In this document: piece after piece, positions 59,955-64,000 of the stretch
Position numbering within the stretch: position 1 is the stretch's first letter
Layout: each line of letters begins with the position of its first letter
DNA from: Longimicrobiales bacterium
GTDB lineage: Bacteria > Gemmatimonadota > Gemmatimonadetes > Longimicrobiales > RSA9
Length of the DNA: 64,000 bases
Direction of reading: 5' to 3'
Assembly (NCBI GenBank): GCA_035465395.1
Contig: DATHRK010000015.1
Coordinates: 7,916 to 71,915 of the forward strand
Made by a program: the position numbers and the translations under genes
The notes under the pieces: generated by a model
What the model saw: only the letters and a program-made list of their open reading frames with translations
The model's database searches: none
What the model was told of the DNA's origin: nothing

Positions 59955-60890
59955 ATGACCACGAGCGATAAGAGAGAAGCTGCCATCCACCCGATCGGCG
60001 TCGTCGCGGAGCGCGCCGGCGTCAGCCCCGACGTCGTGCGCGCATGGGAGCGGCGTTATGGGGTCGTGGAGCCGGAGCGAGATGCTTCCGGCCGGCGTGT
60101 ATACACCCAGTCGGACATCGACCGGCTGGTCCTCCTGGCGCGAGCTACAGAGGGCGGCCGCTCCATCGGTCAGGTCGCGAACCTCGAGGACGAAGTGCTC
60201 GAAGAGCTCATTCGCCAGAGGGTCGCCGCCCGCGCCTCCACCGGTCCGCTGGATCTACCCGCGGATTCGGGAGAACTGGTCCAGGAGGGGATGCGCCTCG
60301 TGCGCGCTCTCGATGGGCACCAACTGGAGGTGTTCCTCCTGCACGCGGCATCGCGCCACGGCGTTCCCGTCCTCCTGCGCGCCGTGGTCGGTCCCCTCTT
60401 CCGCGCAATCGGCGTCGAGTGGCACGCCGGCAATCTGACGGCGGCGCAGGAGCACCTGGCGACGACGACCGTACGGGGTGTGCTCGTGCGCTTGCTCGGA
60501 AGCCTCCCTCGGATCGACGATGCGCCGGTTCTGCTTGCCGCGACGCCGACCGGCGAAAGGCACGAAATAGGGATTTTGATGGTCGTGGCGGAAGCCGTCA
60601 CGCTGGGCTGGCGCGTCACCTATCTCGGCGCGGATCTCCCCGCCGAGGAGATCGCGTCGGCCGCGAAGCAGACGGGGGCTCGCGCGGTTGCCCTGGGTGC
60701 GGTGTACACGCCGGACCCGGCGCGTCTGGTGAGGGAGATCGCCGCGCTTCGCCGAGCCCTTTCGGAGGACATCGCCCTCATGGTGGGAGGCGCAGCCGTC
60801 CGCCCCCTCGACCTACCCGAGGGCGACGGAAAGACCGTCTACATACGGGACCTCGACGAGCTGCGAACCGAGTTGAACGCGCTGGCCTGA
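59955..60890 (+). CDS. carH: MerR-family, B12-binding light-responsive regulator (CarH/LitR type)
   Basis: MerR HTH IGVVAERAGVSPDVVRAWERRYG. Wx9EH motif WHAGNLTAAQEH (W codon at 60420-60422). B12 loop GERHEIG (His codon at 60561-60563), followed by a Rossmann-like region. Confidence 0.8.
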   Translation: MTTSDKREAAIHPIGVVAERAGVSPDVVRAWERRYGVVEPERDASGRRVYTQSDIDRLVLLARATEGGRSIGQVANLEDEVLEELIRQRVAARASTGPLDLPADSGELVQEGMRLVRALDGHQLEVFLLHAASRHGVPVLLRAVVGPLFRAIGVEWHAGNLTAAQEHLATTTVRGVLVRLLGSLPRIDDAPVLLAATPTGERHEIGILMVVAEAVTLGWRVTYLGADLPAEEIASAAKQTGARAVALGAVYTPDPARLVREIAALRRALSEDIALMVGGAAVRPLDLPEGDGKTVYIRDLDELRTELNALA

Positions 60891-60891
60891 C

Positions 60892-60906
60892 GCGCGCAAA
60901 GCGCGC
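60892..60906. terminator. Short GC hairpin between convergent genes
   Basis: GCGCGC-AAA-GCGCGC. No U-tract follows. Confidence 0.25.
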
Positions 60907-60938
60907 TGCGGCGGCCATCCGGGCCACGGGGCGCCGAC

Positions 60939-61412
60939 CTAGTCGAGCCCTTCCAGCACGGCGATCGCGTCGCGTGCCGTCAGCCGCCCCACCTTGCCGC
61001 TCGAGTACACGGCGTGGGCGACCGTCCCGTCCCGGTGGAGCACGAAGCCGGCCGGCTGAACGTGGGCCTTGCCCTCGCGGGTGCCCGTGTAACAGCCGAT
61101 GGCTCGGGACATGGCCTCGGCGTCCAGCCCGTAGAGAACGGTGTAGTGGAGATCGAGCCGTTCGACGACGCCGCGCGCGTCCGATTCCGAATCGGACGAC
61201 AGCGCGACCACCTGCGCGTCCAGGGCCTCGATCTCGGCCAGATGCTCCTCCATGTCGGCCAACTGCCGACGACAGTGGCTTCACCAATGTCCGCGGTAGA
61301 ACACGAGGACGGCGCGCAGGCCGTCGAGGTCGTCGGGGATAGCGAAGTGGCTACCATCGACGGCCTGCGCGTCGACGTGCGGGAAGCGGTCACCGGTGGC
61401 GAGCTTGGTCAT
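60939..61412 (-). CDS. Peroxiredoxin-like (PRX_like2/AhpC-TSA) protein with an in-frame TGA; probable selenoprotein (UxxC)
   Basis: Track ORFs 61281..61658 and 60939..61262 share one frame. The joined product reads ...VLVFYRGHW-[TGA 61281-61283]-SHCRRQL...VVALSSD, matching the WCxxC...S.D pattern. ATG at 61412. Confidence 0.65.
61254..61270 (-). promoter_or_regulatory. SECIS-like hairpin downstream of the in-frame UGA
   Basis: The mRNA can form GUCGGC-AGUUG-GCCGAC: six perfect base pairs and a 5-nt loop containing GU. It starts 10 nt after the UGA. Confidence 0.45.
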
Positions 61413-61584
61413 GGGTAGTCGGGGCCTGATCGTCGGGGTCTCCGGCGTCTTCGCTCTGCAAATGCGATTCCGGAGCGGTCCGTTCCGGTACGCGTCGCGC
61501 CCTCCGTGGCGAGACCCTACTTTCGCGGCGGTCCACGGCACCGGGCGCAGCCGCGGGGCCGACGTCCGCCGTAGGAGGTGTGCC

Positions 61585-62124
61585 ATGGCATGGGATCTCG
61601 ACACGCTGGCGAAGCTGGGCGAGTTCGTCGGCGGCTCCTTCGTCGTGGTGACCCTCATCTACCTGGCCTACCAGGTCCGTCAGAATACGCAATCGCTCCG
61701 CAGCGAGAACTACGCGCGCGTGCTCGAGCGCATGTCGACGCTGCAGTCACGGCTGGCCGCCGATCCCGATGTCAACCGCGTGATAGCGGTCGGAGCCGAC
61801 GATCCCGCGAAGCTCAGCCCGAGCGACCGCATGCGGCTGGGCTGGGCGCTGTACGAGCTGTTCGGCGCCGCCGAATTCATGCACCACATGAACCGGAACA
61901 GGGCGCTGCCAGCCGAGGTCTGGGAGCGGTGGGACGCATCGCTCGCCTGGTGGCTGTCCCACGTTGGCATTCGCCGGTGGTGGGAGGCGAAGCCGGCGCC
62001 CATGAGCACCAGCTTCGAGGCCCACGTCGAGGACGTGCTGGCACGGCCGCTCATCGACCCGGGCCGGGAGAGGAAATGGCGGAGGTTCGTGGCGGGGGAG
62101 AGTCCGAACGATCCGGCGCCGTGA
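61585..62124 (+). CDS. Hypothetical N-terminally anchored protein
   Basis: ATG with GGAGG 6 nt upstream. One TM helix ([16 protein letters not shown]). Confidence 0.55.
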
Positions 62125-63596: not shown

Positions 63597-63614
63597 AGCG
63601 CCATCGTCACGTCC

Positions 63615-64000
63615 ATGGTCACGGCAAACGGGCGTTCCGTCCCGAGCCACGGCGCGCGCGACGGGCGGGTGGCCGCCATCGTCCTGGCGGCGGGCCTCTC
63701 GCGCCGGCTGGGTCGCAACAAGCTGCTCGCGGAGATCGACGGCGAGCCGCTCGTGCGACGGGCCGCCCGGCGCGCTCTCGAGGCCGGCCTCGACCCGGTG
63801 CTGGTCGTCGTCGGACACGAGCGGGAGCGGACGGAGGCTGCCCTGGCGGGCCTCGACTGCCGGCCGGTCTTCAACCCGCGCTACGAGGAGGACGGCCGGA
63901 CCGGGTCGCTGCGAACCGGCATCGTCGCGGTCCCCGACGACGCCGCCGGCGCGATGGTGATCCTGGCCGACATGCCGCGCGTCGAGGCGGCGAGCATGCG
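63615..64000 (+). CDS. MobA/MocA-like nucleotidyltransferase (5' partial, runs off the window)
   Basis: AAIVLAAGLSRRLGRNKLLAEIDGEPLV, MVILADMP. No stop codon before the window end. Confidence 0.7.
   Translation, partial: MVTANGRSVPSHGARDGRVAAIVLAAGLSRRLGRNKLLAEIDGEPLVRRAARRALEAGLDPVLVVVGHERERTEAALAGLDCRPVFNPRYEEDGRTGSLRTGIVAVPDDAAGAMVILADMPRVEAASM

What the first reader, a model, noticed from the sequence alone, without database searches (positions are those of the whole stretch)
60939..61412. In-frame TGA at the first Cys of a CxxC motif in a peroxiredoxin-like gene, followed by a SECIS-like hairpin: probable selenoprotein split by the ORF caller
Track ORFs 61281..61658(-) and 60939..61262(-) are in the same frame. 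They are separated only by TGA (61281-61283) and six sense codons.

Read from the ATG at 61412, the product is MTKLATGDRFPHVDAQAVDGSHFAIPDDLDGLRAVLVFYRGHW-[TGA]-SHCRRQLADMEEHLAEIEALDAQVVALSSD... This fits the PRX_like2/AhpC-TSA pattern (vlvFYRG.WCp.C ... vvaiS.D), with the TGA exactly where the first redox Cys belongs, giving U-S-H-C.

Ten nucleotides after the UGA, the mRNA can fold into GUCGGC-AGUUG-GCCGAC (plus-strand 61254-61270). That is a short perfect stem with GU in the loop, at roughly the spacing known for the E. coli fdhF SECIS.

UxxC thiol-disulfide oxidoreductases are a known class of bacterial selenoproteins. Standard gene callers would annotate this locus as two fragments or as a pseudogene.
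Basis: partly seen in the sequence, partly recalled or inferred. Interest (0 to 1): 0.75.

Follow-up and report, generated by a model that had tools for sequence, protein, structure and literature searches.

The report
Selenocysteine gene split by gene callers
A small peroxiredoxin-fold redox gene has a UGA codon that almost certainly encodes selenocysteine, followed by a conserved RNA hairpin; it belongs to a known class of bacterial selenoproteins, although every public gene call seen here cuts it in two.

Summary
On the minus strand, one reading frame runs from ATG 61412 to TAG 60939 and is interrupted only by TGA 61283-61281. With Cys in place of the stop, the 157-aa product is an AhpC/TSA-Redoxin domain protein.

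The TGA lies at the first position of W-[TGA]-S-H-C. All 14 full-length homologues aligned carry Cys there (W-C-x-x-C). The same TGA codon is present in every relative I could read, about 40 loci. These come from Gemmatimonadales MAGs, soil and marine metagenomes, with 30-80% protein identity and 36-72% GC. The 40 codons upstream of the TGA are ungapped and as constrained as the downstream part.

Ten nucleotides after the UGA sits a 6-bp stem with an AGUUG loop. It pairs in 100% of sequences and has two compensatory G-C to A-U switches. It uses codons that are rare in this genome (CGT, TTG, GCT). It meets all four criteria of the published bacterial SECIS model.

By the field's own rule (pfam00578 plus UxxC), this is a "Prx-like thiol:disulfide oxidoreductase" selenoprotein, a kind known since 2005. 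It is a new member of a known kind.

Not testable here: whether selA, selB, selC and selD exist elsewhere in the genome.

The parts
60939..61412 (-). Complete selenoprotein coding sequence: 157 codons plus TAG, with codon 44 = UGA (Sec). Product is MTKLATGDRFPHVDAQAVDGSHFAIPDDLDGLRAVLVFYRGHW-U-SHCRRQLADMEEHL...AVLEGLD.
   Evidence: sequence and translation. Pfam AhpC-TSA 1.7e-18, Redoxin 5e-15, with C at the stop; same architecture and same N-terminus in relatives.
61410..61412 (-). Start codon ATG. The ATG at 61658 of the mechanical ORF is not the start.
   Evidence: The N-termini of relatives coincide here (M-x-x-L-x-x-G-x-x-F-P). Public gene calls give a 43-aa N-terminal ORF (L047 and L048, the same sequence as the window).
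61284..61409 (-). N-terminal coding segment upstream of the UGA (codons 2-43): beta strands leading to the active-site turn FYRGHW.
   Evidence: the 40 upstream codons align without gaps in 24 sequences. pN/pS is 0.535, against 0.522 for 45 downstream codons, so the segment is translated and under the same constraint.
61281..61283 (-). In-frame UGA, the inferred selenocysteine codon (U44), first position of the U-S-H-C redox motif.
   Evidence: TGA is at the identical codon in all relatives. It aligns with an invariant Cys in Cys-type homologues.
61272..61274 (-). TGT, Cys47: second redox residue of UxxC. It occupies the position of the peroxidatic Cys of true peroxiredoxins.
   Evidence: Invariant column C47. 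The alignment to Bcp4 3hjp puts U44 on Thr42 and C47 on residue 45 of PxxxTxxC.
61254..61270 (-). SECIS core hairpin: 5' arm GUCGGC (61270-61265), apical loop AGUUG (61264-61260), 3' arm GCCGAC (61259-61254). It lies within codons R48-R49-Q50-L51-A52-D53.
   Evidence: 100% paired in 25 distinct sequences. Compensatory G-C/A-U switch at pair 17/27 (10 vs 15 sequences, none mixed) and at pair 18/26 (L011); rare codons.: -9.4 kcal/mol; kept in distant relatives with 36-69% GC.
61092..61094 (-). TGT, Cys107 in the motif IGCYTG: an extra Cys nearly invariant in the Gemmatimonadales-type clade. It is Ala, Ser, Val or Thr in most Cys-type homologues and in the distant Sec forms. Role unknown.
60939..60941 (-). 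True stop codon TAG.

Best explanation
This is one gene for a 157-residue selenoprotein of the peroxiredoxin fold with a thioredoxin-like U-x-x-C active site. It is not two ORFs and not a pseudogene.

Shown here:
- One frame runs from ATG 61412 to TAG 60939 with a single UGA.
- That UGA is conserved at the same codon across dozens of independent lineages.
- It aligns with the first Cys of W-C-x-x-C in Cys-type homologues.
- The sequence upstream of it is under protein-level constraint.
- A 17-nt stem-loop 10 nt downstream is conserved at the nucleotide level, with compensatory base changes.

[quoted passage not shown] Selenocysteine is inserted instead of termination. Translation then continues through the hairpin, which itself encodes R-R-Q-L-A-D.

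In the folded protein, Sec44 sits just before the first long helix. It most likely acts as the attacking nucleophile and cycles with Cys47 through a selenenylsulfide. The protein would therefore work as a thiol-disulfide oxidoreductase, possibly reducing peroxides or protein disulfides with thioredoxin-type recycling. It would not work as a classical peroxiredoxin, because two conserved positions of the peroxiredoxin PxxxTxxC motif are changed: Pro is replaced by Arg40 and Thr by Sec44.
For: (1) Pfam AhpC-TSA 67 bits and Redoxin 56 bits.

(2) All 120 best database homologues are 88-119 aa fragments covering only the C-terminal 56-68% of the query. The DNA of 31 of 32 related loci shows TGA at the same codon, in FYRG[HRD]W-TGA-xxC-R[RQ]QL (L032 is a 3' remnant). 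Six more loci from distant relatives (30-49% identity, 36-69% GC) and five further loci show the same. Thirty-nine loci match TGA-N6-TGY-CGT-CRG-CAG-TTG-GCY-GAY exactly.

(3) Cys homologues of 158-177 aa have W-C-x-x-C in that column. W43, C44 and C47 are invariant across 30 sequences.

(4) The upstream 40 codons are ungapped, with pN/pS 0.535 against 0.522 downstream.

(5) Hairpin: 6 of 6 pairs form in every one of 25 distinct sequences, and 2 pairs show double compensatory changes. No shuffle out of 500 reached the observed percentage paired or covariation score, and slid registers pair at 50% or less. RNAalifold picks the same structure.

(6) Synonymous constraint: pS is 0.32 in the 9 codons after the TGA, against 0.56-0.58 elsewhere. 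CGT (6.4% of Arg codons), TTG (3.9% of Leu) and GCT (3.0% of Ala) are rare in the window's genes. Yet CGT and TTG are invariant here, and GCT appears exactly when its pairing partner is A.

(7) All four criteria of the published bSECIS model (PMC13188914, Fig 2 legend) are met. The loop is 5 nt (3-9 allowed). The stem is 6 bp (4-16). G is at loop position 2, followed by U. There are 16 nt from the UGA to the loop (16-37). MFE is -9.4 kcal/mol (-7.5 or lower required).

(8) An AlphaFold model of Cys homologue P0129 (pLDDT 94.3) has the peroxiredoxin fold (3hjp, TM 0.78). The Sec-equivalent Cys50 lies immediately before helix 51-62.

(9) UxxC Prx-like selenoproteins are an established predicted family (PMC1088965, PMC1794560, PMC9312934).
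Against: No Sec machinery could be shown. There is no tRNA-Sec and no selA, selB or selD in the 64-kb window or in about 254 kb of related loci. That is expected by chance, but it leaves the key co-requirement untested. No paper in the searchable library reports selenoproteins in Gemmatimonadota.

The hairpin is short. Part of its pairing potential comes from the peptide itself: Cys-type homologues encoding CR[RQ]QL.D also form hairpins here, but in other registers. A competing hairpin (columns 4-12 with 18-27) pairs in 93.8% of cells in the close relatives.

Sec insertion itself and the enzymatic activity are inferences. No experiment exists.
Confidence: 0.9

Rival explanations
1. Decaying pseudogene: a nonsense mutation hit the catalytic Cys codon (TGC/TGT to TGA) of an ordinary CxxC redoxin, and the gene is no longer functional.
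For: A single-base change from TGT or TGC gives TGA. Two relatives show damage: L014 has a 1-nt deletion just before the TGA, and L032 is a 3' remnant.
Against: The same TGA is present in about 40 independent loci spanning 30-80% protein identity and 36-72% GC, with no other stops or frameshifts in all but the two damaged loci (L014, L032). The upstream and downstream parts have equal pN/pS of about 0.53. None of the close relatives has TGC or TGT at this codon.
Confidence: 0.02
2. The UGA is read through without selenocysteine. Near-cognate tRNA inserts Trp or Cys, or SelB delivers Cys, and the hairpin merely slows termination.
For: The Sec machinery was not demonstrated for this genome. Hairpins downstream of stop codons can stimulate read-through in general (established knowledge).
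Against: The site is the nucleophilic position of a redox motif, where Sec/Cys pairs define selenoproteins. Trp there would inactivate the enzyme. The hairpin has the spacing, size and G-U loop signature of SelB-dependent bSECIS elements (PMC13188914). If plain Cys were wanted, a one-base change to TGY would provide it, yet none of about 40 lineages uses it.
Confidence: 0.05
3. Two separate small proteins: a 43-aa peptide ending at the UGA, and a 104-113-aa protein started independently at TTG 61262 or ATG 61250, as public annotations have it.
For: This is how gene callers annotate it in every source seen.
Against: The split falls between the strand ending in FYRGHW and the active-site helix of one compact domain. 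The supposed downstream start is not conserved: it is TTG, CTG or ATG at different codons, giving 'LAD', 'MAD', 'MEEH' or 'MQEH'. In the window and most relatives it is the TTG inside the hairpin loop. Full-length Cys homologues are single polypeptides.
Confidence: 0.02
4. Sequencing or assembly error created the TGA.
For: None specific.
Against: The identical sequence occurs in two other independent assemblies (L047 from ENA and L048 from Logan), and the same codon occurs in dozens of unrelated samples.
Confidence: 0.005

Closest known systems
Prx-like thiol:disulfide oxidoreductase selenoprotein family (pfam00578, UxxC/UxxU; reference WP_010940744.1 of Geobacter sulfurreducens; Zhang, Fomenko and Gladyshev 2005, PMC1088965; Zhang et al. 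2006, PMC1794560; reviews PMC9312934 and PMC13188914)
   Same: AhpC/TSA domain. Sec at the first position of a thioredoxin-like UxxC motif rather than the TxxU of Sec-peroxiredoxins. Cys homologues have CxxC. The SECIS lies inside the coding region just after the UGA. Sec forms outnumber Cys forms among close relatives (here; 22 vs 4 in the Sargasso Sea data, PMC1088965).
   Different: The lineage differs: the family was first catalogued mainly in Deltaproteobacteria, Clostridia and marine metagenomes, whereas this clade sits in high-GC soil Gemmatimonadales and Acidobacteriota MAGs. It also has an extra conserved Cys (IGCYTG). No NCBIfam model captures this clade at its cutoff, and the public gene calls I saw are all truncated.
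E. coli fdhF-type bacterial SECIS / consensus bSECIS model (Zhang and Gladyshev 2005, as summarised in PMC13188914)
   Same: Stem-loop in the coding sequence immediately 3' of the UGA. About 10-11 nt from the UGA to the hairpin base. Small apical loop with G followed by U. All four model constraints are met.
   Different: Much shorter conserved core (6 bp, 17 nt). No conserved lower helix and no conserved bulged U. The sequence is almost invariant across very divergent hosts.
Typical peroxiredoxins (Bcp/PrxQ, AhpC; PxxxTxxC plus conserved Arg), closest solved structure S. solfataricus Bcp4, 3hjp
   Same: Same fold (Foldseek TM 0.78, rmsd 1.6 A for homologue P0129). Cys47 occupies the peroxidatic-Cys position.
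   Different: Pro is replaced by Arg40 and Thr by Sec44. The motif is CxxC-like rather than TxxC. Sequence identity is 20% or less.
Selenoprotein L / SelL-related redox proteins (NCBIfam NF040769; PRX_like2 group)
   Same: Prx-like fold with a CxxC-type (UxxU in SelL) redox motif. This is the best NCBIfam hit.
   Different: Only 35.9 bits over the N-terminal half, against a cutoff of 120. One Sec, not two.

Membership tests
Prx-like thiol:disulfide oxidoreductase selenoprotein (pfam00578, UxxC) | AhpC/TSA (pfam00578) domain | tested here: met
   PF00578 at 67.2 bits (cutoff 26), residues 7-133.
Prx-like thiol:disulfide oxidoreductase selenoprotein (pfam00578, UxxC) | In-frame TGA forming a UxxC motif that aligns with Cys (CxxC) in homologues (a Sec/Cys pair) | tested here: met
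   W-U-S-H-C in the window against W-C-x-x-C in 14 Cys homologues. The column is invariant.
Prx-like thiol:disulfide oxidoreductase selenoprotein (pfam00578, UxxC) | TGA-containing homologues in other organisms, with conservation on both sides of the TGA | tested here: met
Prx-like thiol:disulfide oxidoreductase selenoprotein (pfam00578, UxxC) | Sequence-level orthology to the reference member WP_010940744.1 | not tested
   The reference sequence could not be obtained with these tools. Membership rests on the domain-plus-motif rule stated in PMC9312934.
Prx-like thiol:disulfide oxidoreductase selenoprotein (pfam00578, UxxC) | Host genome encodes the Sec-decoding trait (selA, selB, selC, selD) | not testable with these tools
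   None found in the window or in about 254 kb of loci.
Bacterial SECIS (consensus bSECIS model, PMC13188914 Fig 2) | Apical loop of 3-9 nt and upper stem of 4-16 bp | tested here: met
   Loop AGUUG (5 nt) and a 6-bp stem.
Bacterial SECIS (consensus bSECIS model, PMC13188914 Fig 2) | G in one of the first two loop positions, usually followed by G or U | tested here: met
   Loop A-G-U-U-G is invariant in 27 of 27 sequences.
Bacterial SECIS (consensus bSECIS model, PMC13188914 Fig 2) | [quoted passage not shown] | tested here: met
   16 nt (alignment columns 4-19), which is the lower limit.
Bacterial SECIS (consensus bSECIS model, PMC13188914 Fig 2) | MFE of -7.5 kcal/mol or lower | tested here: met
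   -9.4 kcal/mol for the 17-mer and -14.6 for the 38-nt context.
Bacterial SECIS (consensus bSECIS model, PMC13188914 Fig 2) | Binding by SelB and dependence of read-through on the element | not testable with these tools
   Needs an experiment.
Typical peroxiredoxin (Prx; PxxxTxxC active site) | Conserved Pro and Thr of PxxxTxxC preceding the peroxidatic Cys | tested here: not met
   The alignment to 3hjp shows Pro38 replaced by Arg40 and Thr42 by Sec44. Only the Cys position is kept (Cys47).
Sec-containing peroxiredoxin PrxU (NF040737, TxxU) | Score above the curated cutoff; Sec at the peroxidatic position | tested here: not met
   20.4 bits against a cutoff of 270. Sec is three residues upstream of the peroxidatic position.
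SelL-related redox protein (NCBIfam NF040769) | Score above the curated cutoff (120 bits) | tested here: not met
   35.9 bits, covering the N-terminal half only.

The most novel reading that the evidence does not exclude
This may be a distinct clade of PRX_like2-type redoxins, dominated by Sec forms and not separately catalogued. It is abundant in soil Gemmatimonadales and Acidobacteriota and also present in low-GC and marine lineages. Its nearly invariant 17-nt SECIS (GUCRGCAGUUGGCYGAC) has been kept across about 30% protein identity and 36-72% genomic GC. That would be the first concrete evidence that high-GC soil Gemmatimonadota decode UGA as Sec. The extreme nucleotide conservation could reflect horizontal spread of the gene together with its SECIS, or an unusually strict SelB recognition code.
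Probability: 0.3. Interest if true: 0.45.

Novelty: new member of a known kind. Interest (0 to 1): 0.35.

Why it matters
The practical value is in annotation. Every public gene call I saw for this clade (more than 120 protein clusters) is a truncated 88-119-aa fragment lacking its active site, and no NCBIfam model reaches its cutoff. A simple 30-nt pattern plus the protein profile would recover the whole family.

Biologically, it adds a Sec-dependent thiol oxidoreductase to soil Gemmatimonadales, a phylum for which I found no selenoprotein report in the searchable literature. It also offers a compact, naturally validated SECIS: 17 nt with two observed compensatory variants. That could be useful for studying SelB recognition or for engineering Sec insertion. 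It does not change how Sec decoding is understood.

Tried and rejected
(1) Rfam at gathering thresholds on the whole window found no hits. This is uninformative for a 17-nt coding-region hairpin.

(2) The single-sequence fold z-score in a 71-nt context was not significant. The structure claim rests on covariation instead.

(3) The lower-stem extension seen in the window's own fold (CUGU/AUGG) is not conserved: its four pairs are mostly unpaired in relatives. It was dropped from the element.

(4) The alternative hairpin, columns 4-12 with 18-27, pairs in 93.8% of cells in close relatives. However, it shows no covariation beyond shuffles (261 of 500) and only 5-6 of 9 pairs in 4 of 5 distant relatives. 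It was rejected as the conserved element, though it might compete in vivo.

(5) The search for the Sec machinery used E. coli SelA, SelB and SelD by tblastn, and ARAGORN, on the window and all loci. Nothing was found.

(6) Conserved gene neighbourhood: none beyond the nearest relatives, so there is no functional inference from context.

Cys homologue P0129 was modelled instead.

(8) Literature searches for selenoproteins in Gemmatimonadota gave nothing relevant.

(9) The promoter and terminator consensus scan around the gene found nothing.

Full report
**Observation**

The minus strand between 61412 and 60939 is a single reading frame with one internal stop, TGA at 61283-61281. They are separated by the TGA and six sense codons.

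Read from ATG 61412, the product is MTKLATGDRFPHVDAQAVDGSHFAIPDDLDGLRAVLVFYRGHW-[TGA]-SHCRRQLADMEEHL...EGLD. The perfect hairpin GUCGGC-AGUUG-GCCGAC lies at 61254-61270, 10 nt after the UGA. It is the only match to that motif in the window.

A scan of all six frames looked for in-frame TGA codons flanked on both sides by 40 stop-free codons with coding-type GC3. It returned this site alone. TGA is the usual stop codon of the window's genes, so the genome does not reassign TGA globally. The window is about 72% GC.

**What the protein is**

With Cys in place of the stop, the protein matches Pfam AhpC-TSA (1.7e-18, 67 bits) and Redoxin (5e-15) over nearly its whole length. No NCBIfam model reaches its curated cutoff. 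The best is the SelL-related redox protein family, at 35.9 bits against 120.

Against solved structures, the region around the stop aligns with the WCGHC active site of protein disulfide isomerase and with the active-site segment of the peroxiredoxin Bcp4 (3hjp). In that alignment Arg40 replaces the Pro, the TGA codon replaces the Thr, and Cys47 takes the peroxidatic-Cys position of the PxxxTxxC motif (the motif itself is established knowledge).

An AlphaFold model of a full-length Cys-type homologue (P0129, pLDDT 94.3) has the peroxiredoxin fold, with 3hjp as the best match (TM 0.78). The Sec-equivalent Cys lies immediately before the first long helix. So this is a peroxiredoxin scaffold carrying a thioredoxin-like CxxC-type centre. 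It is not a classical peroxidase site.

**Comparative evidence that the UGA is decoded**

A search of 5.8 billion proteins returned 180 homologues. All of the best 120 are 88-119 aa long and cover only the C-terminal 56-68% of the query. That means gene callers truncate the whole clade at the same place.

I fetched DNA for 4 genome loci and 28 metagenome loci. The genome loci are three Gemmatimonadales/Gemmatimonadetes MAGs and one MAG labelled Acidobacteriota.
- In 31 of these 32 loci the codon before the conserved x-x-C-R-[RQ]-Q-L is TGA (L032, a 3' remnant, lacks this part of the gene). Wherever the contig reaches further upstream, it is preceded by a conserved M-x-x-L-x-x-G-x-x-F-P...FYRG[HRD]W segment in the same frame; L014 (a 1-nt deletion, below) is the exception.
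- Six further loci were chosen from truncated representatives at only 30-49% identity, in DNA of 36-69% GC, including a TARA ocean contig. They show the same architecture.
- So do five more loci, two of which are independent assemblies of the window's own sequence.

The 40 codons upstream of the TGA align without a single gap in 24 sequences. Their pN/pS is 0.535, against 0.522 for 45 downstream codons. The upstream part is therefore translated and selected like the rest.

An exhaustive profile-free search of 1.84 billion cluster representatives also found full-length homologues of roughly 150-260 aa at 46% identity or less. The 14 that I aligned, together with 16 reconstructed Sec forms, all have Cys in the TGA column. 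W43, C44 and C47 are invariant.

Only two loci show decay. L014 has a 1-nt deletion just before the TGA, and L032 is a 3' remnant.

**The RNA element**

I aligned the 51 nt starting at the TGA from 27 sequences, 25 of them distinct.
- The helix of columns 14-19 with 25-30 forms a standard pair in 100% of cells.
- Pair 17/27 is G-C in 10 sequences and A-U in 15, never mixed. Here CGG (Arg) changes to CAG (Gln), and this is always accompanied by the synonymous change GCC to GCT.
- In L011, pair 18/26 switches G-C to A-U (CGA...GTC).
- No shuffle out of 500 reached the observed percentage paired or covariation score, and slid registers pair at 50% or less.
- RNAalifold independently predicts this helix and nothing else.

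Synonymous variation drops to pS 0.32 in the nine codons after the TGA, against 0.56-0.58 elsewhere. The codons that build the hairpin are rare in the window's genes: CGT is 6.4% of Arg, TTG is 3.9% of Leu and GCT is 3.0% of Ala. Yet CGT and TTG are invariant. They stay the same even in relatives with 36-55% GC. Thirty-nine loci match the 30-nt pattern TGA-N6-TGY-CGT-CRG-CAG-TTG-GCY-GAY exactly.

The element meets all four constraints of the published consensus bSECIS model (PMC13188914, Fig 2 legend):
- The loop is 5 nt (3-9 allowed).
- The stem is 6 bp (4-16 allowed).
- G is at loop position 2, followed by U.
- There are 16 nt between the UGA and the loop (16-37 allowed).
- MFE is -9.4 kcal/mol (-7.5 or lower required).

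**Caveats on the RNA**

- The lower-stem extension seen in the window's own fold is not conserved.
- A competing hairpin, columns 4-12 with 18-27, can form in most close relatives (93.8% paired). It shows no covariation beyond shuffles and breaks down in four of five distant relatives.
- Three Cys-type homologues that encode CR[RQ]QL.D also have hairpin potential at this spot, but in other registers and without the 6-bp/AGUUG form. Part of the pairing potential is therefore inherent in the peptide, or is a relic of Sec/Cys conversions.

**Mechanism**

Shown: one frame, a conserved UGA at the Cys position, a translated upstream part, and a conserved covarying hairpin.

Inferred: SelB with Sec-tRNA(Sec) binds the hairpin and inserts Sec at codon 44. 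Sec44 and Cys47 then form a selenenylsulfide redox pair at the N-terminus of the active-site helix, so the protein acts as a thiol-disulfide oxidoreductase.

The clade-specific Cys107 (IGCYTG) has no assigned role.

Gene context gives no help. The gene stands alone between a convergent MerR/B12-binding regulator gene and a divergent gene of unknown function. The neighbourhood is conserved only in the nearest relatives.

**What could not be tested**

The window has no tRNA genes. The related loci, about 254 kb in all, have no tRNA genes either. Neither contains homologues of E. coli SelA, SelB or SelD.

**Comparison with what is known**

A "Prx-like protein" selenoprotein family was described in the Sargasso Sea selenoproteome. 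[quoted passage not shown] It was also found in Geobacter, Syntrophus, Desulfotalea and others (PMC1794560).

Reviews define it as pfam00578 plus UxxC/UxxU, and they state that domain plus Sec motif is the classification rule (PMC9312934, PMC13188914). By that rule this gene is a member.

Direct orthology to the reference protein WP_010940744.1 was not tested. I found no report of selenoproteins in Gemmatimonadota in the searchable library.

**Verdict**

This is a genuine, mis-annotated selenoprotein gene with a well-supported SECIS. It is a new member, and possibly a new clade, of a known kind.

It is useful for annotation and offers a compact natural SECIS, but it is not surprising to a specialist. 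I put the probability that it is a Sec-encoding gene at 0.9 and its interest at 0.35.

Noticed in passing
window 59955-60890 (+): The gene convergent with the selenoprotein gene encodes a MerR-type HTH fused to B12-binding domains, a CarH/LitR-like architecture. Regulators of this type are light-responsive in other bacteria. A link to the neighbouring redox gene is speculation, and the pairing is kept only in the same or nearest sequences.
   Followed up: partly
window 61273-61280 with 61257-61266 (-); alignment A2 columns 4-12 with 18-27: A second hairpin, mutually exclusive with the SECIS stem, pairs the Ser-His-Cys codons with GCAG.UUGGC. It forms in 93.8% of cells among close relatives, shows no covariation, and is lost in distant relatives. 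It might modulate SECIS availability or be a by-product of sequence conservation.
   Followed up: partly
L035 242-292, L036 370-420, L037 1375-1425 (Cys-type homologues): Cys-type homologues that keep the peptide CR[RQ]QL.D still use TTG for the Leu and can form hairpins at the same spot, in shifted registers. These are possibly fossil SECIS elements left by Sec-to-Cys conversion, or the raw material from which the SECIS arose.
   Followed up: partly
L014 1380-1455; L032 2250-2430: Two relatives look damaged. L014 has lost one T in CAT-TGG-TGA (now CATGGTGA), which shifts the N-terminal part out of frame. L032 keeps only the last 52 or so codons, next to an unrelated gene. These could be real gene decay or assembly errors.
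   Followed up: partly
window 61092-61094 (-), Cys107: An additional Cys in the motif IGCYTG is nearly invariant in the Gemmatimonadales-type Sec clade. It is Ala, Ser, Val or Thr in most Cys-type homologues and in the distant Sec forms. Its distance to the active site could not be measured.
   Followed up: no
L044 6060-7310 (+): In a 1.1-Mb JGI contig, a gene with a weak Pfam SBP56 (56-kDa selenium-binding protein / methanethiol oxidase family) hit lies about 3 kb upstream of the orthologous selenoprotein gene. It was seen only once.
   Followed up: no
window 61585-62124 (+): The divergently transcribed neighbour, 179 aa with a hydrophobic N-terminal segment, has no Pfam family. It was not found by tblastn next to the gene in other loci, apart from the window's own duplicates.
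   Followed up: partly
window 63597-64000 (+) and L006 2350-2682: A MobA-like NTP-transferase gene (PF12804) lies near the selenoprotein gene in the window and in two close relatives. Enzymes of this family act in molybdenum-cofactor maturation. No link to selenium was tested.
   Followed up: no
window 60044-61342 (+), 60778-61287 (-), 60980-61393 (-), 61014-61418 (+): Several long ORFs overlap the gene in other frames. They are typical artefacts of 72% GC DNA: only the 60939-61412(-) frame has coding-type GC3 and homologues.
   Followed up: yes
P0135, P0160, P0180, P0139: A few full-length homologues have non-Cys residues in the redox motif: W-S-D-H-C, W-W-F-Y-C (Trp, one base from TGA), Y-R-F-P-F-C, and C-G-Y-S. 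These may be inactivated or re-purposed family members, or TGA-to-TGG escapes.
   Followed up: no
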